A stretch of 64,000 nucleotides of DNA, from IMG/VR virus record IMGVR_UViG_3300011008_000008; one strand, 5' to 3'. Position numbers and translations under genes: made by a program. The first letter of the stretch is position 1. Each line of letters begins with the position of its first letter. Under the pieces are notes generated by a model that did not search any database, was not told where the DNA came from, and saw only the letters and a program-made list of their open reading frames with translations. Shown one piece after another: positions 3,991 to 63,794 of the stretch. This stretch comes from a virus. Lineage: Duplodnaviria; Caudoviricetes.

Positions 3991-5049
3991 TTGGGAAAAA
4001 CTAATCTAAACGCTGGTAGGTCAACCGTTTATAATTCAATTACCACACCGGAAAAGTTGAGCGAAGTGAACGAAGATAATATTCAATTAGAAAATGATTT
4101 TCTTGAATATCTTGCTTCCACCGACAAATCCAAAGAGACAATTAAACAATATCGTTCCAACCTCCACATTTTCTGGTGCTGGAATTTGGAGAACAACAAG
4201 AATAAATTCTTTGTTGATCTAACGAAGCGTGAGCTTACAAAGTTTCAAAATCACGCTTTGAATGGTTGGGGCTGGTCGCCACGAAGAATTAGAACAGTAA
4301 AAGCCACTTTATCATCTTTAAGTAATTATATTGAAAACATACTTGATGATGAATATGAAGGATATAAATCAATTATTGGTAAGATTGAATCGCCAATTGA
4401 CAGAGCGGTACGCGAGAAAACAGTTTTTCAAGAAAGCGATTTAATGCCTCTACTTGATTACCTCGTTGAAAATAAACAATATATGAAAGCTTGTGCTTTA
4501 TCTCTTGCCATGAACGGCGGTAGGCGTAAGGCGGAATTGCCAAGATTTAAGGTTGGTTATTTCAGGCCAGAGTTTACTATATGCAATGGTGCATTATATA
4601 AAACCCCGGAAAAAGTGCAGACGAAAGGCAGAGGGTTTGAGGGTAAACCCTTGGAGCTGTATACTATTGTCTCGCCATTTCAACCATATTTGGATTTATG
4701 GATGGAAGAAAGACAGAGGCTTGGGATTAATAGTCAATGGTTATTCCCGAAAAAGAAAGATGGGAAATGGGTTGATGAACCGATCCAGACAACAACTCTT
4801 GATTCATGGGCGCGTTCATTTAGTATATTCCTTGGGAAGCCTTTCTATTGGCATAGTTTAAGACATTACTTTACGACAAAGCTTGTGTCGTATGATATAC
4901 CATCCGCAGTAATTCAAGATATCGTTGGTTGGGAATCCGCAGATATGGTTAATCGTTATGACGATACTGAAAAGGATGAACGCTTTGAAAAATACTTTGG
5001 TGCAGATGGAATTAATAAGGTTAAAGCTACAAGACTTGAAGAACTATAA
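3991..5049 (+). CDS. Tyrosine recombinase (XerC/D-like)
   Basis: Catalytic motifs GRRKAEL (R), KGRG (K), HSLRHY (HxxR), GW and RY (Tyr) all present. Confidence 0.85.
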   Translation: MGKTNLNAGRSTVYNSITTPEKLSEVNEDNIQLENDFLEYLASTDKSKETIKQYRSNLHIFWCWNLENNKNKFFVDLTKRELTKFQNHALNGWGWSPRRIRTVKATLSSLSNYIENILDDEYEGYKSIIGKIESPIDRAVREKTVFQESDLMPLLDYLVENKQYMKACALSLAMNGGRRKAELPRFKVGYFRPEFTICNGALYKTPEKVQTKGRGFEGKPLELYTIVSPFQPYLDLWMEERQRLGINSQWLFPKKKDGKWVDEPIQTTTLDSWARSFSIFLGKPFYWHSLRHYFTTKLVSYDIPSAVIQDIVGWESADMVNRYDDTEKDERFEKYFGADGINKVKATRLEEL

Positions 5050-5108: not shown

Positions 5109-7289
5109 ATGGCTGACTTTGAGGCAAGAGTACTTGCCAAATTAGATTTATCAGAGTTAAATGGTGAGCTGTCAAGGCTATCAAGCTCAAATAATAGGAT
5201 GACAATCCAGCCGCGATTAGATACAAGCGCAATAACAAGGCAGATTGATAATATTGAACAAAGGCTTCGCGCACTTGGAAATATTAGAATTAATCTTGGC
5301 GGAAACACCCGTCAGAATTACAATGGTGCTGATTCATTGCGTGCAATGCAGGAAATGCAGAGCATTATCCGTCAGATCAATTCGACGGAGCTTAAACTAT
5401 CCGGGTTGGATATGGGCAAGAATGCATCACAGATTACTGAATTAAATAACCAACTAAATGTTTTGCAACAGCGCCTTACCAGCGTAATGACATCTCAATC
5501 AAATAATTTAACGGCTGGCCAGTTTGATCAGTTGAATCAATCAGCGCAAGAAGCACAAAATAGGTTGGCTGAAGTTGATGCAAAACTTGCTGATACAAGA
5601 AATCAAATGGCACAGAAAATACAGATGGATATTGATACCGGCAAGATCGATACATCTATTACTTCTGTGACAGAAAAGTATAGCAAATTAAGTAATACTG
5701 GACACTCCAGCTTATCTGCAATTAAAGCAGATATTGAAGAACTCGGAAATCTTCAAGCGGATCTGAACAATGCCACATCGAACGAGCAACTAATCAGCAC
5801 ATACGAGCGTTTCCAGCAAACGCTATCTAAGGTCAAGAATAGCCTATCTACTGTAAGTTCAGAATCAAAAATGATGGCGACATCTTTACAAATTGGCCAG
5901 CTTGATAATAAAATGTCGCAATGGCTATCCAACAATTCAAAGGCTACTAAAGAATATGGTGCTGCCATTAACGCATTGAGATCACGTTTGTCTGAACTTG
6001 CTTCTTCTGGCACTGCGACAACAGCAGACCTACAAGCTCTCGACAACGAGTTTAAACAGATTGTAGTTGATGCAACCGCTGCAGGATTGACAGGCAAATC
6101 CTTTGGTGACATCATTAAGAGCACGGCTCAACAGATGGTTGGGTTTGTTTCCATAGCATCTGTAATGTCAACAGCAATTCGACTATTTAAGGATATGTCG
6201 AAGGAAGTTCTATCTGTTGATACAGCAATGACCGGCTTATATCGTGTTACAGATTTATCGTCCGACCAATATAAGCAGATGTATAGCGAGATGGTAACAT
6301 CTGCAAAAAGCTATGGTTCTACTCTAACCGATATTATCAATGGTACAACGACATGGGTTAAGCTTGGTTTTTCACCGGAAGAAGCGCAAGGCTTATCTGA
6401 TATTACTGCAATATACCAGCATGTTACTGATCTTGATACAGAAACAGCAGTCAAGAATCTTGTAACTGCCTATAAAGGCTATGAGGAACAGCTATTAGCA
6501 TTGACCAATGGCGATTCTGTAAAAGCCACTGAATACATAGCAGATATCTTTGATAAACTTGGTAACGAGTTTGCAGTCAGTGCAGCGGATGTCGGCGCTG
6601 GCCTGGTAAATTCCGCATCTGCTTTAAACGTTGCTGGTAACTCTTTGCAGCAGTCGGCGGCTATGATCACCGGTATTACCGAAGTTACTCAAAATGCTTC
6701 AAAGGCCGGTAATGCTGTACGTACTCTTTCTATGAGATTAAGAGGCGCTACTGCGGAAGATCTGCAAGAGCTTGGCGAGGATACAGATGGTTTGATTACA
6801 TCTGTATCAAAATTGCAAGGAGTAATCAAAGGTCTGACCGGGGTAGATATTACAGACGTTAATGGCCAGATACGTTCTACATTTGATATTATGGACGATC
6901 TTGCGGGAGTGTTCAATGATTTAAAAACAAACGATCAATCATTCCTGCTTGAAACAATCGCCGGTAAAGCGCGTGGTTCTGATATCGCAGCTCTATTGAA
7001 GAATTGGGATCAGGTTAAAGCTGCATATGAAGCAGCGAATAACGCTTGGGGTACAGCTTCAAACGAGCAAGCGGTTTATATGGAATCTCTACAAGGTAAG
7101 ATAAATCAGTTTAAAGCATCCTGGCAATCTTTAGCGAATACAGTACTTTCTTCTGATTTCTTGAAAGGCGCTGTCGATACTGCGACAACATTACTTTCCT
7201 TACTTGATTCTATTGTTGGAAAACTTGGGACAATTCCAACTATAGTAGGCGCTATAACCGCCGCAACATCCCTTAAAAACGGCGCAGGT
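5109..7289 (+). CDS. Tape measure protein, exon 1 (TP901-type core)
   Basis: 727-aa helical Ala/Ser/Gln-rich ORF with TMP motifs (KAGNAVRTLSMRLRG, ETIAGK); the TGA at 7290-7292 is the first three nucleotides of a group I intron. Confidence 0.9.
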
Positions 7290-7747
7290 TGAACAGATCA
7301 ATCAGTTCACACATCCAATTATACTACGGAGAATATGCCTGCGAAGCTCTCTAATGGCAACATGAACGAGACTGTCTTATAATTCGCTTGACAGTCAAGA
7401 GGGGCTAAGACATCGAGTGTACTTTTGCCACATGCAAAGGTCTACTCGATAATGGGTTAAACTGGTAGGGGTGATTACCTACCACATAAGACTGGGACGA
7501 ACCGTGGATGAACCTACATACAATAATCCACGGAACTATCAGCAGCCATATCCCGATGCGAATACGGGAAGGTTCAGAGACTATAAACTCACACGGTTGT
7601 TAATCGTGAATGTATAGGCCAAACTGTACTCGGCAGTAGGAATAGCCGAGGTAAAAGATCGACCTGGTAAGCCAGCCAGGGTATAGGAATTGGCGGGTGT
7701 CCCCTACCCCGTTGTGCTTGAGACGAAAAGAGGAAATATGGTATTAC

Positions 7748-7996
7748 CTACCATTTATAGCCGCAATTTTTGCACTCGAATTGTGCCCTTGCTGTAGGAT
7801 TGGTAATACCAAAAGCAAAAGCATTTAGTGAGCGTCGAGTATTAGACACTCTGTTTATATTTGTCGAATGACAAGTTGGGCATTCAATAGTATCTGGCAA
7901 GGCTGTTGCTAACTTACCGCCGCAAATCATACATTTATTTCCGTTATAATCATTCAGTCTAATACCGCATTTTGTACAATATTTTTTCTGCCCCAT
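7748..7996 (-). CDS. Intron-borne zinc-ribbon protein (4 CxxC), antisense to the host gene
   Basis: 82 aa, CTKC/CMIC/CPTC/CKNC, GAGGTG RBS and its own promoter; no LAGLIDADG, GIY-YIG or HNH motif. Confidence 0.8.
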   Translation of the reverse strand: MGQKKYCTKCGIRLNDYNGNKCMICGGKLATALPDTIECPTCHSTNINRVSNTRRSLNAFAFGITNPTARAQFECKNCGYKW

Positions 7997-8015
7997 TTAT
8001 TATCACCTCTTCATT

Positions 8016-8044
8016 ATTATACCATTACTTTACCTGCATGTCAA
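8016..8044 (-). promoter_or_regulatory. Consensus sigma-A promoter for the intron cargo gene
   Basis: TTGACA (8044-8039), 17 bp, TATAAT (8021-8016), with extended -10 TG. Confidence 0.85.
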
Positions 8045-8080
8045 TTAATTTGTGTATAAGCAGCACATTTAGACAGTTTG

Positions 8081-11000
8081 CTATTCTCTTCATTTGCAGA
8101 TAAAGACGGAAATAATAAAGTTACTTTCTTAGGTAAAACTCTTTCCGATATTAAGGGCGGAAAACTATTTACTAATGATAAAAAAGCATTGTCAGAATAT
8201 ATTAAGGCGCTACAATCCGGGCAATCCCAACAGGAAGCATTTGATTCTACAATGTCTGGTGCGAGTGAAAAGGCACAGATATTTGCAAAGAGTATTGATA
8301 CAAGTAGTGAGTCATTACAAAAATATTCAACTGAAGTCCAGAATATATCTGCGGGATCAAAACTATTAAAAGTAGGGCTTGCTGCTTTAAATTCTATTGC
8401 AGTTTCACTGCTTGCGTCTTTTGCTCAATGGGCTATTTCAAAAGTTATAGATAATGTAGTTAATCGTGTTGAAAACGCTTATAACAAAGCCAAGAAAATA
8501 GCAGATGAAACAGCGACAACAGCTACGAAGTCAACTGAAGATAGTAAAACTCTCGACGAGCTAATAAATAAATATAAAGAGCTTAGAAGTAGTGAAAACT
8601 ATGGAGCGTCTGAAAGATCGCAAGTTGCTACAATACAGCAACAGATTGTTTCTTTAGTTGGTGAGGAAGCGGCTGGTCTTGATCTTGTTAATGGGAATCT
8701 TGAAACACAACTCGGTATTTTAAAGCAAATCTCCGCTGAAAAACTACAAAATGCAATTAGGGATCAAAAGATAGCTACGGATGCCGCAATTGAAGCCGCA
8801 AATGCAACTCCATCTTTGAATAAAACATTGATGGCGCATAACGCATATAAGGGCAATAGGAATGACGAAGCAGCGGCGGCGCTAACAAAGCATGGTATTT
8901 ATAACGTTGGTGGGCCATTTAGCTTTGTCAATGATTTTATTAACGGTTTTCGGATTGACGATGGTACTGACAATGGCGCAACGTTAATGACGCGCTTGAA
9001 CTTTTTAAAACGAGTTCGCTCAGCATTAGAAAGTGAAATCACAGATTTTCAAAGCAATGATGTCTGGGTTGGAGTATCTAAACAGATTAGTGCTTACGAT
9101 GCAGAATTGTCAAAAGTTACTACCGAAGTAAATAAGCAGATGCAATTGCTTACTATGGAAGCAATGCAAAGTAATGGCGATCTGGAAAGTATTGCAAAAG
9201 ATACTGCAGATGGATTTGAGCAATATGTAGATATAATAGTAAGTCAAGTATCAAAAAGTGGATGGTTTGATGATTACATAGACCAAGGATTTATTGATCT
9301 TGATTCAATTCGAGATTATGTAATTACTCAACTATCTTCTATAGAAGACTTCTCTGCTGGTAGAGATAAGTGGAATAAAGAAAATCGAAAAAATGACATT
9401 CTTGATTCAATATTCGGCGCTGGTAGTTTAGGCAGAGCTAAATCCCAGACTGTTGGTGAAATCTCTAAGTTTATAGATTCATTACCAGATGAAGATTTAG
9501 AGATAGCTTATACAGTTGCATTAGATAAACAATCTGAAATAGAAACTGTCGATCAATTTAAAGAGCTTATAGATAAAGCTAAAGAAGATGCTCTAAATGC
9601 CGATTCAATTTCGTTTAATGAGTTTGTTTCAAGCGATACAATCAAAAATGATCTTGAACCAATACTAAAAGAGTATCAAGAAATTGCTGCCGCCAGGAAG
9701 AAATTACAATCTGGTGAAGCCACCGAATCAGATTTGATTTATGAGCATCCTTCTTGGGCTAAATATGCTGGCAATCTTGAAGCTGGATTAATCGATCATG
9801 CTGAAGAATTAAAGAAAAAGGCTGAAACAGAAATTGGTAAAATAGTTATCACCCCTGAAATAGATGAAGATGGCACAGACAATATTGCTGCTTTTGAAAC
9901 ATGGAGAGATTCTTTCTTAAAACAGTTTGAGGAAGAAGGAGTAATAACACTTCCAATAGACATTGATGCTGAAACAACTGGCATGAACAATGTAATGAGT
10001 GCTATTAAATCCTCAGTTTCAGAAACAGGTCTTGCAGCAGACCAAGTTGAAAAGCTAAAAGAAAGATACAAAGGTCTAACTGATGCTGGTGACAGCCTGA
10101 ATAATCTTTTTGACAGAACTACAAGCGGTATCCACCTAAACACAGATGCACTTCGCGAACTTGAAGATGCCTACCAGAAACAATTAACAGATAAGGTTTC
10201 TGTCGATCTTGAAAAGCAACGTAGGCTTTATCAAGAACTGACAGAGAGCATAAATAATGCTGGCGATGCTGATACAAGTGGTCTTGAAGCTCAACGTGCC
10301 GCTGCCGCAAATGCAATACGTGAACTTGAAAGCCTGTCCGCCCAGCTTGCGGGTGTTACATCAAAGTACAACAAGTGGAAGCAAGCAAGAAGCGGTGGCG
10401 AAGAGGGCGATGCCTATGTTGACACCACATCACAGCTAAAGGATCTACAAGAGCAGCGCAAAAAAGGTCTTGTAGGAACAAATGAATTCCGTTCCGCCGT
10501 AGAGTTTATGGCTGGCGGTGTTGAAGATGTAGATTTGTCAACTGCATCAGTTGATCAGTTGGTAGCTGCTTATGATAAGGCATATCCTAAGATGCAGCGG
10601 TATTTCACCGAGAGCAATAAGGGCACTCAGAACTTCCTGAAAGATTTGGAAAAGGCGGGCAAAGCTTCCAAAGATGCCGAAGGCGTATGGTCGTTTGACT
10701 TTGGCGAGGATGGTATGCAAGGCGTCGTTGATGATCTTGGAATTAGTGCCGAGGCAATATATCAGATACTTGGTCGGTTAAAAGATTATGGCGCTGAAGT
10801 TCATCTTGAATCTTTATTTCCAGATATTGATTTACAAGCGGATAATATAGCGGACGCCATTACAGAAGTCGATGAAAAGATTCAACAGGTAAAACAGGAT
10901 ATTGCAGACGGTAAAGTTTCTGAAGAGGCTGGAAATGAACAGATAGAAAAGTATAATGAAGCAAAAGAAGCTTTACAGAATATGGACGTTGGTGCAGAAG

Positions 11001-14000
11001 TAAATACTCTTTCATTAGATGAAGCTTTGGCCAAAATCCAAGAACTTGAAGGAGCTATTACTACACTAACCTCAGCTGGTATTGAAATTCCTGTTAGTAT
11101 TGCTGGGCAATATGATGAGCTTCAGACATTTGTTCAAGAATATAGCGAGAAGAAAAATATTGACGTTGAAGTCAAGGTTAATGTTAGCGGAGATGCGCAA
11201 GAAAAGATTGAAGCTATCAGTAAATCCATCGACGATCTTGGCAAGAAAAAAACTACACTGGAGATTAATGCAACAGATAAGGTATCTACTGTTGTCGATG
11301 GAGCCAAGGAAAAGCTTGACAATACCGCTGAAGGCCTATACAATGCTACTGTTTCTGCTCAAACTGATAGTACGGTAGCGGCAGTTGCGAAAGCGCTCGA
11401 TGAAGCTGCCGAGGATAGAACAGCTACTATTACTACAAAATATGTCGAAGCGCCCGTAACTGGCGATGAACCAGATTATGTTGACAATACTCACATAAAT
11501 GAGGATGGCGTAACAGTCGGTTATAGTGGTGTTCTACCCTATAAAACCCGTGAGCCAGACAAAGGTAAAGACGCTGAAATAGTGCCTATTGAGCAAACGT
11601 GGCAAAATTCGCCCGCCCCGAAAAACCTTGATGTTGAAGTCGAGGCAAGCGAGGATTCCGGCGAAAAAATTGTTGAGCAAGTTCAGGACGATATAGACGA
11701 ACAGCCACCTATTGAAGAAAAGATTATAAACAATAGTGATGGAATGATCATGTTCCCTGGTGACGAGGGGTATGATATTGATGTTGATGTTAATGCATCA
11801 GATCCATCAAAACCTATTGAACAGGTTAAAGAAGCTGCCTCATCTAATCCGATTGAAATCGAGCTTACTAAAAACGACACTAATGATGCCGTTGAAGCTG
11901 CGAATAGTCTTATTGGCAAAGCTGATGAACTTGGTGTGGGTGACATGGAGGGTGGCCCAGAGTTAATCAGCAATCTAACGACTGCATATAACGAGCTTTA
12001 CCAGGCAGAAGTAAAAGCTGCGGAAGTAGCTAAGACTGGCGATAGTTCTGGTGCAACAGAAGCCGCAAGCGAATTACAGTCGGCAGCGCAATCGTATATG
12101 GATGCGTATAATTCCTTATCCGATGTATTATCGTCTGGAATAGAGCCATTAGAAGTTGATGCAGACACAGAGACGGTGTTAAGCAAAATCCAGGCTTTGG
12201 CAGATATAGACCCAACATTAGTTGTTGGTGTAAATGATGTAGCAGTCAAAGCATACCAATCTGAGAATATTGATAAGGATGCTAAGGTTAATTACGCTCT
12301 TGGTAAAACTCCTGACTATAATCCGCAAGATATAGACAGAAATCTTACTTATCACATTAAAACGGTTGGTTCGGTTTCTGGAGGTGCTGGTGCAACTGGT
12401 ACAGCTCACGCTCGTGGCACAGCGTTTAAGTCAGGAAGATGGGGAGTCCGTGGTGAAGGTGACGCATTAGGTGGTGAGACCGGCGAGGAGCTGGTGGTAA
12501 GAGATGGTAGGTTCTTTACTATAGGCACTAATGGCGCAGAATTCTTTCACTATAAAGATGGCGATATTATTTTTAATGCCTCACAGACTAAAGAACTCCT
12601 CGAAAGAGGAAAGATCATTTCTGGCAAGTCTCGTGGAAGGGTATTTGGAAGTGGCTCCGCTTATGCTGAAGGTTTGGCATTTGATGAACCTTCAATATAT
12701 GGTTCAACTAAAGATTATTCCGATAACTCTGGCAGTAGTAGCGGTAAGAAAACCTCCAAGAAGTCAAGTAGTAAAAAGTCCAGTAAATCCAGTAGCAAGA
12801 AAAAGAGTAGCAAGAGCAGCAAAGACTCCAACGACATGATGGATTGGATCGAGGTTGCCATTGACCGTGTTGAACTTGCAATCAAGAAACTTGCAAGAGT
12901 AGCCGACAGCACGTTCAAAGGACTTGCAACCCGACTATCTGCTACCAACGATGAAATAGGCGAAATCTCGAAAAAGATTTCCATTGAGCAACAGGGCTAT
13001 GATCGCTATATGCAGCAAGCGAACAGCGTTAAGCTGACCGATGCTACAAAGCAAAAGATCATGGACGGAACCATTGATATTACTCAATACTCCGATAGTC
13101 AAAAGAAGCGTATTGACGAATTCAAGAAATGGTACGACAAAGCCCAGGATTGTGCCGATGCTGTTGAAGAATTAAATGAAAATCTTGCAACGCTTTATAA
13201 CAACAAATTCGGTGCGATTTCAAAGGATGCTGACAATCAGATTAAGCTGCTGGAGCATCTGACCAACTCATTCAACGATGGCTTAGACTTGATAGAGGAG
13301 CGCGGCTATAAAGGCGGTGCTACCCTGTATGCGTCAATGCAGAATGTTGAGCGTCAGAATATCGCAGTATTCCAGAAAGAGCTTGCCGATCTAACACAAG
13401 TCATGAACGAAGCCGTCAATTCCGGCAAGATTCAGGAAGGTTCCGAAGCATGGTATGACATGCAGCAACAGATCAATTCTGTCAAAGAATCAATCCAAGA
13501 ATCCGAAACAGCCATTGTCAAATACGGCAATGCCATTCGCCAGGTCAAATGGGATTTATTTGATTACACGCAGGATAGAATTGCTACACTTACATCCGAA
13601 GCGCAATTCATGTTTGACCTAATGGAAAGATCTAAGCTGTATGACGATAACGGCAACTTCACCAGCACAGGTAAAGTGCAGGTAGGTATGACCGCGCAGA
13701 ACTATAACGTCTATATGGCACAGGCCGACATGTATGGCGATGAGGTCAAAAACATCACTGCCGAGCTTGCCAACGATCCTAATAACACCAAGCTCATTGA
13801 CCGGCGTGAAGAATTGTTGAAGCTCCAGCAAGAATCAATTTCATCCGCCGAGGATGAAAAACGCGCAATGGCTGATTTGGTTGAGGAAGGTATCAACGCG
13901 CAACTTGACGCCCTGAAGGATTTGATTGATGCCTATGAGGAGTCCCTTAGTAACGCGAAAGATTTATACGACTATCAGAAGAAGGTTAAGAATCAGACAA

Positions 14001-15178
14001 AGGAAATTGCTTCGATACAGAAACAATTATCTGCCTATCAAGGTGATACGTCCGAAGAAAACCAGGCGCGTTTACAGAAGTTGAAAGTTGATCTTTCTGA
14101 TGCAGTCGAAGATTTGCAGGACACCCAATACGACCAATATATTAAGGATCAGAAGAAACTATTGGACGGTCTGTATAGCGATTATGAGGAATTGCTGAAC
14201 AATCGTTTGGATGATATCGACGCGCTAATGCTTGAAATGATTGATTACGCAAACGCGAACGCAGTTGAGATTGGTCAAACCATTTACGATGAAGCCGCCC
14301 AAGTTGGATATACCATTACAGACAATATGAACGAAATCTGGAATAGCTACAATACAGATAATGTATTAGAGAAATATGGTGAATCTATTCTTGGACAGTT
14401 TGGGTCTGTGACCAACGTTATCAACGGAATAGTCAATCAGGTTGCTGCAATAAACAACGCTGCGAATGCAATTGCCGCGCAGGTTCAAGCGAAGGTAGCC
14501 GCGAGTGCTGCAGCTTCAACTGGTGGTAGCGCCGCCGCGATAGTATCATCACCTTCGGTAGCTGCCGCTGCATCAGGTGGACAAAAGGTTACAGTCGCAA
14601 ACGGACAATGGTGGCTGTACAAGAATGGCCCAAAGAGTGGACAGACATCTGATATTGTTCATACCGGTGAGAAGTATGAATATCTTGGTGAGGATAAAGC
14701 CTCTAACGGCGAGAAGTATACCAAGATCAGCTACAAGGGTAAAGTGCGCTGGTTCAATTCTAAAGGTAAGGGCAAGCTGGGCTATTCCCAGGGTGGCTTT
14801 ATCGCAGATCTCCAGAAGATTGCTTATCAGAACGGCGATGATATGTTGACCTTCAATACGCTAAAGCGTGGCGAAGCAGTATTGACGCCGGAGCAATCTA
14901 TACAGTTCAAGAATCTGACAGATCATTTGCCACAGTTGCAAGGCATTATAGATATGTCTGGCCATATGCAACAAATCAGATCGGGTAGCAATGCCTCCAG
15001 CGGAGAAATCAGAATCGATGTCGGAGGAATTACTACCACGGTTGAGAATGTGCAGGACTACAATGACTTCCTGCGGCAAATGAGAGACGATAAGAATTTC
15101 GAGCGCATGATCGATGCGATGACACTTGATCGCTTGGTTGGTAAATCCAGTTTGGCGAAAAAGAAGTATTTCAGTTAG
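8081..15178 (+). CDS. Tape measure protein, exon 2 (spliced product about 3092 aa)
   Basis: 2365 codons of coiled-coil TMP-like sequence, GETGEELVV motif, Ser/Lys low-complexity tract near 12.72-12.83 kb, SH3b-like segment near the C-terminus; no good RBS before the nominal TTG start. Confidence 0.88.
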   Translation, partial: LFSSFADKDGNNKVTFLGKTLSDIKGGKLFTNDKKALSEYIKALQSGQSQQEAFDSTMSGASEKAQIFAKSIDTSSESLQKYSTEVQNISAGSKLLKVGLAALNSIAVSLLASFAQWAISKVIDNVVNRVENAYNKAKKIADETATTATKSTEDSKTLDELINKYKELRSSENYGASERSQVATIQQQIVSLVGEEAAGLDLVNGNLETQLGILKQISAEKLQNAIRDQKIATDAAIEAANATPSLNKTLMAHNAYKGNRNDEAAAALTKHGIYNVGGPFSFVNDFINGFRIDDGTDNGATLMTRLNFLKRVRSALESEITDFQSNDVWVGVSKQISAYDAELSKVTTEVNKQMQLLTMEAMQSNGDLESIAKDTADGFEQYVDIIVSQVSKSGWFDDYIDQGFIDLDSIRDYVITQLSSIEDFSAGRDKWNKENRKNDILDSIFGAGSLGRAKSQTVGEISKFIDSLPDEDLEIAYTVALDKQSEIETVDQFKELIDKAKEDALNADSISFNEFVSSDTIKNDLEPILKEYQEIAAARKKLQSGEATESDLIYEHPSWAKYAGNLEAGLIDHAEELKKKAETEIGKIVITPEIDEDGTDNIAAFETWRDSFLKQFEEEGVITLPIDIDAETTGMNNVMSAIKSSVSETGLAADQVEKLKERYKGLTDAGDSLNNLFDRTTSGIHLNTDALRELEDAYQKQLTDKVSVDLEKQRRLYQELTESINNAGDADTSGLEAQRAAAANAIRELESLSAQLAGVTSKYNKWKQARSGGEEGDAYVDTTSQLKDLQEQRKKGLVGTNEFRSAVEFMAGGVEDVDLSTASVDQLVAAYDKAYPKMQRYFTESNKGTQNFLKDLEKAGKASKDAEGVWSFDFGEDGMQGVVDDLGISAEAIYQILGRLKDYGAEVHLESLFPDIDLQADNIADAITEVDEKIQQVKQDIADGKVSEEAGNEQIEKYNEAKEALQNMDVGAEVNTLSLDEALAKIQELEGAITTLTSAGIEIPVSIAGQYDELQTFVQEYSEKKNIDVEVKVNVSGDAQEKIEAISKSIDDLGKKKTTLEINATDKVSTVVDGAKEKLDNTAEGLYNATVSAQTDSTVAAVAKALDEAAEDRTATITTKYVEAPVTGDEPDYVDNTHINEDGVTVGYSGVLPYKTREPDKGKDAEIVPIEQTWQNSPAPKNLDVEVEASEDSGEKIVEQVQDDIDEQPPIEEKIINNSDGMIMFPGDEGYDIDVDVNASDPSKPIEQVKEAASSNPIEIELTKNDTNDAVEAANSLIGKADELGVGDMEGGPELISNLTTAYNELYQAEVKAAEVAKTGDSSGATEAASELQSAAQSYMDAYNSLSDVLSSGIEPLEVDADTETVLSKIQALADIDPTLVVGVNDVAVKAYQSENIDKDAKVNYALGKTPDYNPQDIDRNLTYHIKTVGSVSGGAGATGTAHARGTAFKSGRWGVRGEGDALGGETGEELVVRDGRFFTIGTNGAEFFHYKDGDIIFNASQTKELLERGKIISGKSRGRVFGSGSAYAEGLAFDEPSIYGSTKDYSDNSGSSSGKKTSKKSSSKKSSKSSSKKKSSKSSKDSNDMMDWIEVAIDRVELAIKKLARVADSTFKGLATRLSATNDEIGEISKKISIEQQGYDRYMQQANSVKLTDATKQKIMDGTIDITQYSDSQKKRIDEFKKWYDKAQDCADAVEELNENLATLYNNKFGAISKDADNQIKLLEHLTNSFNDGLDLIEERGYKGGATLYASMQNVERQNIAVFQKELADLTQVMNEAVNSGKIQEGSEAWYDMQQQINSVKESIQESETAIVKYGNAIRQVKWDLFDYTQDRIATLTSEAQFMFDLMERSKLYDDNGNFTSTGKVQVGMTAQNYNVYMAQADMYGDEVKNITAELANDPNNTKLIDRREELLKLQQESISSAEDEKRAMADLVEEGINAQLDALKDLIDAYEESLSNAKDLYDYQKKVKNQTKEIASIQKQLSAYQGDTSEENQARLQKLKVDLSDAVEDLQDTQYDQYIKDQKKLLDGLYSDYEELLNNRLDDIDALMLEMIDYANANAVEIGQTIYDEAAQVGYTITDNMNEIWNSYNTDNVLEKYGESILGQFGSVTNVINGIVNQVAAINNAANAIAAQVQAKVAASAAASTGGSAAAIVSSPSVAAAASGGQKVTVANGQWWLYKNGPKSGQTSDIVHTGEKYEYLGEDKASNGEKYTKISYKGKVRWFNSKGKGKLGYSQGGFIADLQKIAYQNGDDMLTFNTLKRGEAVLTPEQSIQFKNLTDHLPQLQGIIDMSGHMQQIRSGSNASSGEIRIDVGGITTTVENVQDYNDFLRQMRDDKNFERMIDAMTLDRLVGKSSLAKKKYFS

Positions 15179-33162: not shown

Positions 33163-33942
33163 ATGTCTTTTACAACATTGAAGAATGGTAGTAAGGGAGA
33201 TATGGTTAAGGCATTGCAGTATATCGTTGGTGTAACAGCCGATGGTAAGTTTGGTTCAAAGACTGAATCAGCGGTTAAGACATTGCAGAAGAAATATGGT
33301 TTAACTGTTGATGGTAAAGCTGGCCAAAAGACATTCCAAGCAATTGTCAATAATGCGCCAACTTTGAAATTCGGATCAACAGGTGCTTATGTTTATGCCA
33401 TAGAGGTATTGCTTTCTACCATGAAGCTTGATGGTATTTTTTCGGCTGATGAAACAGCACATGTAAAAACTTATCAGGCGTCAAAGAATCTAACGGCAGA
33501 TGGACTTGTCGGAAAGAAAACGTATACCGCATTGTTTGGCTTGGATTCAGTAACCACAAGCAATGGGACGAATACAACCCAGCCAGTGAATTATAAGCAA
33601 TATGATAGTCGTTGGGGTTCCGTTGTGTATACAAAGAATAATACTTATAACAAAAATCAGACTATAAAGAGTTCTGGTTGTGGCCCAACAAGCATGGCCG
33701 ACATCGTTGCTACATGGTGGGATAAGAGTATTACACCAAAGGAAATGTGCGCATTGTCTGTGGCTAATGGTTACAGGACAACTAACTCTGGCACGGCCTG
33801 GAACTTCTTCGAGTTCGTAGCAAAGAAGTATAAGGCAAGTAAATTTGTCCAAACTTCTTCATTTACAACAATGCAAAATTGTTTGGCAAGCGGCGGCTAT
33901 GTTGTCGTTTCTTTTAAAGAGTCCAAGTGGACAAACGGAGGT
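33163..33942 (+). CDS. Cell-wall hydrolase exon 1: peptidoglycan-binding repeats plus C39-like cysteine peptidase
   Basis: DGKFG/DGKAG/DGLVG PG-binding repeats; YKQYDSRW..SGCGPTSMA catalytic Cys motif; stops at WTNGG before the catalytic His. Confidence 0.85.
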
Positions 33943-34191
33943 TAACATAATGGCCTCCTAACACGGTGAACTGGTACATGCCAGGTGTCGCTAAATATAG
34001 CGGCTAACGGGGAAAGCTAAACGCAAAAGCGCATGCCAATCCCGTGCCAAGCCTCAATGCGAGGAAGGTGTAACGACTATCTCATATGAGAGTACATTGC
34101 AGGTGAAACTCCTGCTATGGAAGCGCCGTGCATTTGATAATATACCAAATGAAGATATAGTCTGGCCTCATGGAAACATGGTGGGTTAATG
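33943..34191 (+). ncRNA. Group I intron (249 nt, ORF-less) in the lysin gene
   Basis: P1 GGAGGU (33937-33942)/GCCUCC (33953-33958); P10 AUAAUG (33947-33952)/CAUUAU (34192-34197); P CUAACGGGGAAA, Q AAUCCCGUGCC, P7 GACUA (34075-34079)/UAGUC (34158-34162) in AAGAUAUAGUC; terminal G34191. Confidence 0.93.
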
Positions 34192-34329
34192 CATTATTGT
34201 TGCCTTTGGAAAGATGATGGCAAAAACATCTATGTGAATGATCCTGCAAGTGCGAGTTCTTCAAGGGCAAAGGGAACATATTCAGAGGTTAAGGCCGCTG
34301 CAAAGCAATACTTCTGCTTCTGGAAATAG
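34192..34329 (+). CDS. Cell-wall hydrolase exon 2 (45 aa; spliced product 305 aa)
   Basis: HYCCLWKDDGKNIYVNDPAS..YFCFWK restores the GGHY and NDP motifs in frame. Confidence 0.9.
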   Translation, partial: HYCCLWKDDGKNIYVNDPASASSSRAKGTYSEVKAAAKQYFCFWK

Positions 34330-62840: not shown

Positions 62841-63794
62841 TTATTCAACTTTAACACCTATAAACTCCAATGCCTCTTTCATGCCAAGCCCCCCCTGTGA
62901 CCAAGGCCGCATACAATAATCCCATAGTTTCGGATGTGTTTGCTTTAGTCTTTGAAACCTATTTGGTTCTTTTTCTCTATGACAGCCAAATCCGCAGAAA
63001 ACACAGCCCGTCCTATCACATCCAGTAGTACAAAATCTCCCGTCATTGTCTTGAACAATATCCCCATAAACCGAAGCATAATTAAGATTATATCGCTTTA
63101 TATATTCGAGTACGTCTTGCTCAGTCCAGAATGACATAGGTTGTGAAGTTGGCCTAATCCCGTCAAAAGCATTACAACCTTTCTTGCGCCACTCTGTTTT
63201 GCGAAGCTGACTTTCGCAAGCCATAGTTGCAATAATCGGGTGCAAACCTGTTTCTTTTTCAAACTTCTTAGCGGGTTTCTTTTTCATAATATTACAGCAC
63301 TTATGGCTTATTGGAATATCACTGTCCCTTAATTCCTTCCACTTCGCCATAGAAAACCTGTTTTTATACTTCTTGTTATACTCGCTGTTTGGATCAAATC
63401 TGGCAACCGTATATCCATCCGGCTTTTGCCTGGACTCATATATTTTCTGTGCGACCTCTTTGCTGATCAAAGGATAGCCATATGTTTGAATGACTTTCCT
63501 AAAGCTCATTTCCGGGGTTAGCCGTATAACATTTGGAACCGTCTTTACAAACTGCCTTATCTCTGGATATTCAAGCCCGGTATCTATAAAAACTGCCGGA
63601 ATATCTGGATTAATCTTTCTAACAATATCAAGCAGAACTGTACTATCCTTACCTCCACTAAAGCTAACATAGACTTGGTTTTCATATCTTGCACAATATT
63701 CAATAATTCTCGTTTGTGTTCTAAGTATCTTTTGCCCCAATGACCATGACTGCATGATCTTCAAATCTTCGTTCGTAAATTTCACACCGACCAC
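62841..63794 (-). CDS. PAPS-reductase-family (PP-loop) protein (second paralog)
   Basis: SFSGGKDS, DTGLEYP, CC.IMKK and RTGCVFCGFG. Confidence 0.88.
   Translation of the reverse strand: MVGVKFTNEDLKIMQSWSLGQKILRTQTRIIEYCARYENQVYVSFSGGKDSTVLLDIVRKINPDIPAVFIDTGLEYPEIRQFVKTVPNVIRLTPEMSFRKVIQTYGYPLISKEVAQKIYESRQKPDGYTVARFDPNSEYNKKYKNRFSMAKWKELRDSDIPISHKCCNIMKKKPAKKFEKETGLHPIIATMACESQLRKTEWRKKGCNAFDGIRPTSQPMSFWTEQDVLEYIKRYNLNYASVYGDIVQDNDGRFCTTGCDRTGCVFCGFGCHREKEPNRFQRLKQTHPKLWDYCMRPWSQGGLGMKEALEFIGVKVE

What the first reader, a model, noticed from the sequence alone, without database searches (positions are those of the whole stretch)
7283..8089. Group I intron in the tape measure gene used as a carrier for a non-nuclease antisense cargo gene
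Seen: three independent pairings (P1, P10, P9.0) fix the splice sites at U7289 and G8080. Removing 791 nt gives ...KNGAG|LFSSFADK... in frame, a TMP of about 3092 aa. In the P9 periphery, where group I introns usually hold a sense-strand homing endonuclease, there is an antisense 82-aa four-CxxC protein with its own RBS and promoter. Inference: the ribozyme makes a neutral landing pad inside an essential virion gene for a moron-like accessory gene expressible in the lysogen, for example for exclusion or defence. I do not recall this arrangement being characterised.
Basis: partly seen in the sequence, partly recalled or inferred. Interest (0 to 1): 0.85.

Follow-up and report, generated by a model that had tools for sequence, protein, structure and literature searches.

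The report
Cargo-carrying intron in phage tail gene
The giant tail tape measure gene of this phage is interrupted by a self-splicing-type (group I) RNA intron that carries a small zinc-ribbon gene reading backwards from its own promoter, and related phages hold other passengers, including known anti-phage toxin-antitoxin systems, in the same slot.

Summary
Window 7290-8080 (791 nt) splits a 3092-codon tape measure (TMP) gene exactly where uninterrupted homologues of about 3110 aa are colinear (GAG|LF).

The insert has group I intron architecture. P1 has a U.G pair at U7289, P10 and a 6-bp P9.0 are present, G8080 is the omega G, and P2-P9 include the P3/P7 pseudoknot. Across 21 related phage contigs, 96% of pair cells are paired and 58 of 97 pairs show compensatory changes. 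Rfam RF00028 misses the intron.

The 82-aa four-CxxC gene (7748-7996, minus strand) is under purifying selection. It has a 12/12 consensus sigma-70 promoter, an RBS and a terminator-like hairpin, and shows no nuclease signature.

In relatives the same ribozyme, at the same TMP site, carries other cargo:
- DarT-DarG;
- a TenpIN type III toxin with RNA repeats;
- lipoprotein-like genes.

Introns range from 770 to 2992 nt. Two hairpins with complementary loops flank the cargo.

Not shown: splicing itself, the function of the zinc-ribbon protein, or any expression in a lysogen.

Group I introns in TMP genes are known. I found no paper describing this cargo-carrier layout. This scan has already noted the same layout in at least 29 other genomes.

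The parts
5109..7289 (+). TMP exon 1 (727 codons), ending ..AAC GGC GCA GGU. The in-frame TGA at 7290-7292 is intronic.
   Evidence: PF10145 1.8e-20. phrog_4211 positions 283-946, 1.8e-76.
7290..8080 (+). Group I-type intron, 791 nt.
   Evidence: Colinear junction in intron-less homologues. Covariation-supported structure. Model R1 hit.
7283..7343 (+). P1: exon 7283-7289 pairs with the internal guide 7337-7343, with U7289.G7337. The 47-nt loop holds two hairpins (7290-7309 and 7314-7330). The P10 guide GAAUA lies at 7331-7335.
   Evidence: U.G is present in 21/21 sequences. Three P1 pairs and all three pairs of the second loop hairpin show compensatory changes.
7345..7449 (+). P2 domain (7345-7406), including a GNRA-capped hairpin (7354-7363) and an inner 7-bp helix. 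It is followed by a hairpin found in the window but in few relatives (7410-7449).
   Evidence: All 7 inner P2 pairs are compensatory.
7453..7619 (+). Catalytic core:
- P3: 7453-7458 with 7586-7591.
- Extra hairpin between P3 and P4: 7466-7484.
- P4: 7492-7495 with 7539-7542.
- P5: 7502-7508 with 7527-7533.
- P6: 7544-7555 with 7565-7574.
- P7: 7579-7585 with 7613-7619, including G7579-C7619 and an A7580.G7618 mismatch.
- P8: 7592-7598 with 7602-7608.
   Evidence: Model R1: 178.6 bits. GGUUCAGAGACUA and GAAUGUAUAG resemble the RF00028 consensus printed.
7621..7725 (+). 3' domain:
- P9.0 strand: 7621-7626.
- P9: 7629-7634 with 7645-7650. Its loop GUAGG (7636-7640) pairs with the L5 CCUAC (7513-7517).
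- P9.1: 7663-7667 with 7676-7680.
- P9.2: 7695-7697 with 7707-7709.
- Hairpin 7710-7725, with loop GUGCUUGA.
   Evidence: the L5xL9 pairing is 100% paired and all 5 pairs are compensatory. Hairpins.
7748..7996 (-). Cargo gene: an 82-aa protein with four CxxC motifs (two zinc ribbons).
   Evidence: Codon-position differences are 332/271/1187. The C-terminal domain family has 1834 representatives.
7997..8044 (-). Expression signals of the cargo: -35 TTGACA (8044-8039), 17-nt spacer with TG, -10 TATAAT (8021-8016), and the RBS AGAGGTGA upstream of ATG 7996.
   Evidence: 12/12 match. A near-consensus antisense promoter sits at the same place in all 19 relatives examined.
7663..7680 (-). Terminator-like hairpin plus T run for the antisense transcript. 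It is the complement of P9.1.
8051..8080 (+). 3' terminal module: hairpin 8051-8067, whose loop UAUAAGCAG is complementary to the loop at 7714-7721; P9.0 strand CAGUUU 8074-8079; omega G8080.
   Evidence: In L029 the loop pair changes from UGCUUG/CAAGCA to UGCUUU/AAAGCA.
8081..15178 (+). TMP exon 2 (2365 codons). Its first bases, 8082-8086 UAUUC, form P10.
   Evidence: phrog_4211 positions 960-2356. Junction alignment.

Best explanation
The insert is a group I-type self-splicing intron in the phage's tape measure gene. It doubles as the housing of an independent, oppositely transcribed gene cassette.

Inferred splicing mechanism:
1. Late tail transcription reads through the intron.
2. The last 7 nt of exon 1 pair with the internal guide (P1, with U7289.G7337). 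A free guanosine attacks after U7289.
3. P10 and a 6-bp P9.0 bring G8080 into the P7 pocket.
4. The exons are joined to give one 3092-codon TMP reading frame.

The 325-nt cargo lies between two hairpins (7710-7725 and 8051-8067). Their loops are complementary and probably clamp the distant 3' splice site to the core.

On the other strand, a consensus host-type promoter inside the intron's 3' end drives the 82-aa zinc-ribbon gene. The complement of P9.1 acts as its terminator. The cargo is therefore expressed independently of TMP, and splicing makes the insertion harmless to TMP.

At family level the same ribozyme at the same codon carries exchangeable cargo. This includes the defence toxin-antitoxin systems DarTG and TenpIN, so this intron lineage serves as a protected slot for accessory genes.

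The function of the zinc-ribbon protein is not known. My best guess is a small nucleic-acid- or protein-binding factor made early in infection, not a nuclease.
For: Shown:
- The junction is colinear with uninterrupted TMPs and with intron-less allele DNA, AAU GUU GGU|AUC UUU.
- Among 21 homologous introns, 96.2% of pair cells are paired. This compares with 82% after shuffling and 35-40% with slid partners. 58 of 97 pairs show compensatory changes, and 0/500 shuffles reach any of the measures.
- P1 follows the exon sequence through at least six guide/exon variants.
- The central P7 pairs switch CU/AG to AC/GU in 9 sequences, and the L5xL9 loop pairing has at least four variants.
- A model built without the window scores 178.6 bits on it.
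- A promoter, RBS and terminator-like site are present, and the antisense promoter is conserved in all relatives whatever the cargo.
- The cargo gene is under purifying selection.
- Cargo varies: DarT scores PF14487 2.9e-22 and PDLC02991 3.9e-32; DarG scores NF048014 2.3e-82, above its cut-off; TenpIN scores NF047358 7.7e-41, above its cut-off.
- Intron presence is patchy on the TMP tree, and the intron tree disagrees with the exon tree.

Inferred: catalysis, the clamp role of the loop-loop pairing, and the timing of cargo expression.
Against: - No RNA evidence was obtained.
- RF00028 finds nothing in the window or in eight relatives.
- The core is atypical. A covarying hairpin sits between P3 and P4, where group I introns normally have a 3-nt joiner. 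P7 also has an A.G mismatch next to its G-C pair.
- P4, P10 and P9.0 are invariant, so they are conserved but not proven by covariation.
- One relative (L001-L003, one study) has A where omega G should be.
- Antisense transcription into the ribozyme could interfere with splicing.
- The zinc-ribbon gene is also found antisense next to the TMP split site with other ribozymes. That fits a resident element gene better than a free passenger.
Confidence: 0.78

Rival explanations
1. The zinc-ribbon protein is the element's own mobility or maintenance factor. It could be a new kind of homing or targeting protein, or the remnant of one, rather than an accessory gene. On this view the intron is an ordinary selfish mobile intron that has picked up extra genes in some phages.
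For: - It is the commonest cargo and always sits next to the 3' splice site. Extra cargo lies between it and the core.
- Of the 80 best zinc-ribbon loci in IMG/VR, only 4 have this ribozyme. At least 35 lie antisense within 3.5 kb of a TMP exon-1-like sequence.
- L034 has a different core but a P1 at the same TMP codon.
- L093 has a sub-threshold RF00028 match (28.4 bits) abutting the end of exon 1.
- Intron distribution is patchy and the trees disagree, which points to mobility.
Against: - There is no endonuclease family hit in Pfam, PHROGs, NCBIfam or PADLOC, and none among 150 family representatives.
- The family's nearly invariant residues are Cys, Pro, Thr, Ser, Phe, Gly, Ala, Gln, Tyr, Lys and Trp. 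No conserved His, Asp or Asn could bind a catalytic metal, and His43 varies among H, N, K and G.
- An 82-aa protein with two zinc sites leaves little room for an active site.
- Family members without the gene keep the same ribozyme and insertion site (L015, L016, L020, L021, L023).
- Its C-terminus is invariant although the flanking exon sequence differs between hosts.
Confidence: 0.2
2. The antisense unit is regulatory. The protein could act as a splicing cofactor for the ribozyme. Alternatively, the antisense RNA could hold back TMP splicing or expression until late in infection.
For: - The antisense transcript is complementary to the intron's 3' domain, and its terminator is the complement of P9.1.
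- There are weak similarities to small zinc-ribbon RNA-binding proteins: HVO_2753 at 3.5e-06 and PRK14890 at 1.2e-04, both far below their cut-offs.
- The antisense promoter is conserved in every member whatever it drives.
Against: - Members with unrelated antisense genes, or none of this family, keep the same ribozyme, so the protein cannot be a required cofactor.
- The similarities are generic to CxxC spacing.
- Fold searches give only generic zinc ribbons with Z no higher than 2.6.
Confidence: 0.1
3. There is no splicing. The TMP is made as two separate proteins, and the region between them is just an intergenic moron with some RNA structure.
For: - Exon 1 ends in a stop codon, and exon 2 has an in-frame TTG at 8078.
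- RF00028 is silent.
Against: - Guide sequences track the exon sequences on the 5' side across many variants.
- The whole group I helix set covaries.
- The break falls within one codon boundary of a continuous, conserved stretch in intron-less homologues.
- I saw no RBS before 8078.
Confidence: 0.03

Closest known systems
Group I introns TMP-IVS1/2/3 in tape measure genes of Bacillus cereus-group prophages (Tourasse and Kolsto 2008, PMC2504315)
   Same: They are group I introns inserted in phage TMP genes of Firmicutes. They are patchily distributed, and their P1 guides are adapted to the insertion site.
   Different: I found no sequence relationship. The phage collection gave no DNA match. 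The passages of that paper that I read do not mention antisense cargo or defence genes. The introns here have a conserved antisense promoter module and variable cargo.
Phage group I introns carrying homing endonuclease genes (T4 td/nrdB; SPO1 DNA polymerase; mycobacteriophage LittleE capsid intron, whose endonuclease gene is on the opposite strand, PMC3706429)
   Same: The ribozyme interrupts an essential phage gene, with an ORF housed in a peripheral region. An opposite-strand ORF has a precedent in LittleE.
   Different: The ORF here has no endonuclease signature. In relatives the slot holds toxin-antitoxin systems and lipoprotein-like genes.
IStrons (group I intron fused to an IS200/IS605 element in Clostridia; 10.1101/2023.11.20.567912)
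   Same: The ribozyme core lies at the 5' end, a long non-ribozyme insert precedes a distant 3' splice site, and the hosts are Firmicutes.
   Different: No tnpA or tnpB was found here. The cargo consists of autonomous expression cassettes, mostly antisense. The insertion site is a single fixed codon of one gene.
Phage morons
   Same: It is a self-contained unit of promoter, gene and terminator that is present in some related phages and absent in others.
   Different: It lies inside a coding sequence and is tolerated only because a ribozyme removes it from the mRNA. Expression from a prophage was not shown.

Membership tests
Group I intron (structural definition) | P1 is formed by the end of exon 1 and an internal guide, with a U.G pair at the 5' splice site. 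| tested here: met
   7283-7289 pairs with 7337-7343. U.G is present in 21/21 sequences, and three P1 pairs show compensatory changes.
Group I intron (structural definition) | The intron ends in a guanosine (omega G), with P10 and P9.0 aligning the 3' splice site. | tested here: met
   G8080; P10 8082-8086 with 7331-7335; P9.0 7621-7626 with 8074-8079. These elements are conserved but invariant, so they have no covariation support. L001-L003 have A at the omega position.
Group I intron (structural definition) | A P4-P6 domain and a P3-P8 domain are joined by the P3/P7 pseudoknot, in the order P3-P4-P5-P6-P7-P3'-P8-P7'-P9. | tested here: met
   P3, P5, P6, P7, P8 and P9 all have compensatory pairs. 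P4 is invariant. An extra covarying hairpin between P3 and P4 is atypical.
Group I intron (structural definition) | A guanosine-binding G-C pair in P7. | tested here: inconclusive
   The window has G7579-C7619 at the expected place, next to an A.G mismatch. Columns 321/374 are G-C in only 10 of 21 relatives. The others may use a shifted pair.
Group I intron (structural definition) | Self-splicing with guanosine. | not testable with these tools
Rfam RF00028 Intron_gpI | The score reaches the family's gathering threshold of 50 bits. | tested here: not met
   No match even at E<10 in 7150-8250, and none in eight relatives. The same search finds the window's other intron at 60.7 bits. This is a limit of the model, not of the structural definition.
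Homing endonuclease (LAGLIDADG, GIY-YIG, HNH, His-Cys box, PD-(D/E)xK, EDxHD) - for the 82-aa cargo | A recognisable catalytic domain or motif. | tested here: not met
   Only zinc-ribbon families match. No conserved His, Asp or Asn is present.
Homing endonuclease - for the 82-aa cargo | A nuclease fold. | tested here: inconclusive
   The model has pLDDT 77. The best matches are generic zinc ribbons: Foldseek E at best 0.067, and Z no higher than 2.6.
Moron | Own promoter and terminator, and presence/absence polymorphism among related phages. | tested here: met
   Intron-less relatives. These are consensus matches only; no transcript mapping was done.
Moron | Expressed from the prophage. | not tested
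   The lifestyle of this phage was not established. One relative lies on a 329-kb MAG contig, whose flanks I did not examine.
DarTG toxin-antitoxin (cargo of relative L029) | Adjacent DarT and DarG genes scoring above curated cut-offs. | tested here: met
   DarT: PF14487, 79.8 bits against a cut-off of 22.5. DarG: NF048014, 277 bits against 250. PADLOC: 3.9e-32 and 2.5e-94. Both genes lie within intron positions 697-2365 of a 2992-nt intron.
TenpIN type III toxin-antitoxin (cargo of relative L009) | A toxin scoring above the cut-off, preceded by tandem RNA repeats. | tested here: met
   NF047358, 139.6 bits against a cut-off of 90. Two tandem copies of about 50 nt lie directly upstream on the same strand and match Rfam RF02925. 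That these repeats are the antitoxin is inferred.
IStron | IS200/IS605 tnpA/tnpB genes inside the intron. | tested here: not met
   No such ORF or Pfam hit in the window's intron or in the relatives' cargo.

The most novel reading that the evidence does not exclude
A lineage of group I introns fixed at one codon of the tape measure gene of large gut and rumen siphophages may have become a dedicated vehicle for exchangeable expression cassettes. Cargo seen so far includes DarTG, TenpIN, lipoprotein-like genes and zinc-ribbon genes.

The RNA appears adapted to this role. Two kissing hairpins bracket the cargo, an L5xL9 loop pairing is present, and an antisense promoter and terminator are built into P9-region helices. 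Together these could keep splicing insensitive to 0.3-2.5 kb of passenger DNA.

The ubiquitous zinc-ribbon protein would then be the element's own factor, of a kind not yet described, rather than a passenger.
Probability: 0.3. Interest if true: 0.85.

Novelty: new variant of a known kind. Interest (0 to 1): 0.7.

Why it matters
Phage accessory and defence genes are known to cluster in hotspots between genes. Here the hotspot lies inside an essential structural gene and is made harmless by a ribozyme. If splicing is confirmed, it adds a new way for phages to carry and exchange defence systems such as DarTG and TenpIN.

It also matters for annotation. Gene callers report two TMP fragments plus stray ORFs, and Rfam misses the ribozyme, so such cargo is invisible to standard pipelines.

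The RNA itself is of interest. It offers a natural design for a group I ribozyme that tolerates kilobase inserts, with covariation-supported long-range loop contacts. The zinc-ribbon family (1834 cluster representatives) is a large uncharacterised phage protein family with a striking genomic address.

Tried and rejected
- Rfam RF00028 at permissive thresholds found nothing in the window region or in 8 relatives. Twenty further zinc-ribbon loci gave nothing at gathering threshold. A permissive search of 8 of them gave one 28-bit match, in L093.
- The phage DNA collection gave no match, and tblastn of exon 2 against it gave none.
- No whole genome is held for this window.
- The first structure prediction of the cargo, from 13 sequences, was too poor to use (pLDDT 60). 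The second, from 150 sequences, reached pLDDT 77. It gave only generic zinc-ribbon matches: no Foldseek hit at E<=0.001, and VIA Z no higher than 2.6.
- Early hand models were dropped. These placed P7' at 7685 or 7757, or paired GGUAGGGG (7466-7473) with CCCCUACC (7701-7708) as P3. Relatives keep the local hairpin by compensatory changes but not the long-range pairing.
- A P10 covariation test failed. L022 and L025 have a changed guide, GAGUGC, but their 3' ends lie outside the fetched DNA and the record is not held. L036, L040 and L069 added no variation.
- nhmmer found no second copy of this intron family in the window.
- PADLOC gave no credible defence hit for the zinc-ribbon protein.

Full report
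**Observation**

The window holds two long same-strand ORFs. The first runs 5109-7292 (727 aa, PhageMin_Tail, phrog_4211 positions 283-946). The second runs 8078/8081-15178 (2365 aa, phrog_4211 positions 960-2356).

They are separated by 791 nt. This gap contains an 82-aa ORF on the opposite strand with four CxxC motifs (7748-7996).

A search for longer relatives returned more than 100 uninterrupted tape measure proteins of about 3110 aa, 58-67% identical over the compared stretch. A 120-residue query spanning the proposed junction aligns to them with no gap at the junction (for example ..KGKG LFDIIA.. in P0003). The DNA of intron-less alleles reads ..AAU GUU GGU AUC UUU.. where intron-bearing relatives read ..AAC GUG GGU | AUA UUC... 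The insertion point and the 3092-codon spliced frame are therefore well founded.

**Is it a ribozyme?**

Rfam's group I model finds a different intron in the window (33933-34183, 60.7 bits). It finds nothing at 7150-8250 even at E<10 and nothing in eight relatives.

The evidence instead comes from comparison. Every homologue of the 82-aa protein whose genomic place I fetched lies antisense next to TMP sequence, between the two TMP halves wherever both flanks were in the fetched DNA. A conserved-core pattern then retrieved 15 more loci from viral, metagenome and genome collections.

A 21-sequence alignment of the first roughly 430 nt (A2) folds into a group I layout. RNAalifold recovers P1, P2, P3, P4, P5, P6, P8, P9 and P9.1. 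I added P7 and a loop-loop pairing by hand.

On this structure:
- 96.2% of 2026 pair cells are standard pairs.
- The figure is 82% after shuffling partners and 35-40% when partners are slid by 1-3 columns.
- 58 of 97 pairs show changes on both sides.
- 0 of 500 shuffles reach any measure.

The alignment was not fitted to the structure, but the sequences are related. The slid-partner control is therefore the more telling one.

Further points:
- P1 tracks the exon. Pairs seen are GCAGGU/GCCUGC, GCGGGU/GCCCGC, AAGGGU/GCCCUU, CUGGGU/GCCCAG, CGUGGGU/GCUCACG or GCCCACG, and CCGGU/GCCGG. The terminal U.G is present in all 21.
- The three central P7 pairs are always paired. Two of them switch together in 9 sequences.
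- The segments GGUUCAGAGACUA and GAAUGUAUAG resemble the consensus printed for RF00028.
- P10 (UAUUC/GAAUA) and a 6-bp P9.0 (AAACUG/CAGUUU), followed by G8080, are conserved but invariant.
- A covariance model built from 20 relatives without the window scores 178.6 bits on 7450-7623 (E 2.9e-40).

I read the element as a group I intron by structure. It is atypical enough that the Rfam model misses it: a covarying hairpin lies between P3 and P4, and an A.G mismatch sits beside the G7579-C7619 pair in P7.

**RNA features around the cargo**

The L5 loop (CCUAC, 7513-7517) pairs with the L9 loop (GUAGG, 7636-7640). This pairing is kept through at least four different sequence variants and is 100% paired, with all five pairs compensatory.

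The core ends in a hairpin (7710-7725) with loop GUGCUUGA. About 15 nt before the 3' splice site lies a second hairpin (8051-8067) with loop UAUAAGCAG. In relatives both stems covary and the loops stay complementary: AUGCUUGA with ACAAGCA, longer in L015 and L016, and UGCUUU with AAAGCA in L029.

The cargo sits between these two hairpins. I infer that the loop-loop contact holds the 3' splice site near the core whatever the cargo length. This is inference.

**The cargo in the window**

A promoter scan gives a 12/12 match, with an extended -10, on the minus strand at 8044->8016. A terminator-like hairpin plus T run lies at 7680->7663 and is the complement of P9.1. An AGAGGTGA RBS precedes ATG 7996.

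Among ten homologues, differences fall 332/271/1187 on codon positions 1/2/3. Synonymous codon differences outnumber non-synonymous ones 890 to 385. It is therefore a real protein under purifying selection.

Thirteen close homologues share an invariant C-terminus..FGI.NPTARAQFECKNCGYKW. The only histidine, H43, varies.

An exhaustive profile search finds 1834 cluster representatives with this C-terminal domain, always at the end of proteins of 70-280 aa. Among 150 of them Pfam sees only zinc-ribbon families. The nearly invariant residues include no His, Asp or Asn.

A model from the deep alignment (pLDDT 77) matches only generic zinc ribbons, with no significant score.

I conclude that the protein is very probably not a homing endonuclease of any known kind. 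Its function remains unknown.

**Cargo in relatives**

With splice sites mapped in 24 loci, introns range from 770 to 2992 nt. Cargo found:
- The zinc-ribbon gene, in short forms of 82-100 aa or long forms of 150-200 aa. When present it is always antisense and next to the 3' splice site.
- An antisense 154-aa protein with a lipoprotein-type leader (L015, L023).
- An antisense membrane and zinc-ribbon protein (L016).
- Other antisense or sense ORFs without matches (L017, L020, L021, L028).
- In L009, a sense TenpIN type III toxin (NF047358, 7.7e-41, above cut-off), preceded by two tandem repeats that match Rfam RF02925.
- In L029, a Ruminococcus MAG contig, a sense DarT-DarG pair. DarT scores PF14487 2.9e-22. 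DarG scores NF048014 2.3e-82, above cut-off. PADLOC gives 3.9e-32 and 2.5e-94.

Every member has a near-consensus antisense promoter (10-12 of 12) at the intron's 3' end, followed by an RBS and the start of whatever antisense gene is there. That prediction is met.

**Mobility**

On a tree of the last 250 residues of exon 1, the window groups with the intron-less P0003-P0005. At least three gains or losses are needed.

The ribozyme tree pairs the window with L010 and L001, whose exons lie elsewhere. This fits horizontal movement or recombination of the intron, although TMP genes are mosaic and some branches are long.

**A wider association**

IMG/VR holds 394 loci encoding the zinc-ribbon domain. 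Among the best 80:
- Only 4 carry this ribozyme.
- At least 35 lie antisense within 3.5 kb of a TMP exon-1-like sequence.
- L034 has an unrelated-looking 400-nt core, but a P1 (GUCGGU/GCCGAC) at the same TMP codon and the AUGCUUGA motif.
- L093 has a 28-bit RF00028 match abutting the end of exon 1.

The zinc-ribbon gene thus accompanies several ribozyme lineages at this site. This keeps alive the rival reading that it is the element's own factor.

**What is not shown**

No RNA data could be obtained, so splicing and antisense transcription are inferred. Whether this phage lysogenises was not established. The promoter type would work early in lytic infection as well. Notes from this scan on the same genome describe arrays of such promoters on early cassettes; I did not check them.

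**Comparison with the literature**

Group I introns in TMP genes are documented in Bacillus cereus-group prophages (PMC2504315). A phage intron with an opposite-strand endonuclease gene is documented in LittleE (PMC3706429). IStrons combine a group I core with a long 3' insert. Five further searches found no paper describing group I introns that carry defence systems or a conserved antisense expression module. The library does not cover all journals.

Other agents of this scan have reported the same layout in at least 29 other genomes. Those are unchecked notes, and I do not count them as evidence.

**Verdict**

This is a real feature and a new variant of a known kind. The intron reading is strong (about 0.9). 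The cargo-slot reading at family level is well supported by sequence. The role of the 82-aa protein is open.

Noticed in passing
window 33933-34194 (+): A second, ORF-less group I intron matches RF00028 at 60.7 bits. It interrupts a putative cell-wall hydrolase gene (ORF 33163-33945). P1 looks like GGAGGU/GCCUCC, and the frame reopens at about 34195 (..HYCCLWKDDG..). It is unrelated in sequence to the TMP intron.
   Followed up: partly
window 3991-5049 (+): A 352-aa tyrosine-recombinase-like gene (PF00589 2.4e-12) lies immediately upstream of the TMP gene. It is conserved at that place in every relative seen, including intron-less ones. This is an odd position for an integrase.
   Followed up: no
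L009 4823-4921 (-): Two tandem copies of Rfam '6A RNA' (RF02925; 64 and 47 bits) lie directly upstream of a TenpIN toxin gene inside the intron. This Rfam family may be the TenpI antitoxin repeat.
   Followed up: partly
L001-L003, intron 3' end (L001 about 4906): Three contigs from one study have A instead of G at the omega position (..CAGUUUA|AUAUUC), with an otherwise intact intron. Either the intron is inactive or its 3' site is unusual.
   Followed up: no
window 7466-7473 and 7701-7708: GGUAGGGG, the 5' strand of the hairpin between P3 and P4, is also complementary to CCCCUACC in the P9.2 loop. Some relatives keep this complementarity (L007, L010) and others do not (L001, L011, L012). It could be an alternative or tertiary pairing.
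   Followed up: partly
L088 5404-5487 (-): A 'skipping-rope' RNA (RF02924, 68 bits) lies about 1.8 kb from a zinc-ribbon gene in another large phage contig.
   Followed up: no
L028 3711-4493 (-): This intron cargo includes a 260-aa protein with a GDTHG metallophosphatase-like start. It has no family match apart from a weak PADLOC PDC-S10 hit (6.4e-04).
   Followed up: no
window 33253-33267 (+) and 62944-62958 (-): Two further 12-of-15 matches to the GGUUCAGAGACUAUA motif. The first lies inside the hydrolase exon.
   Followed up: no
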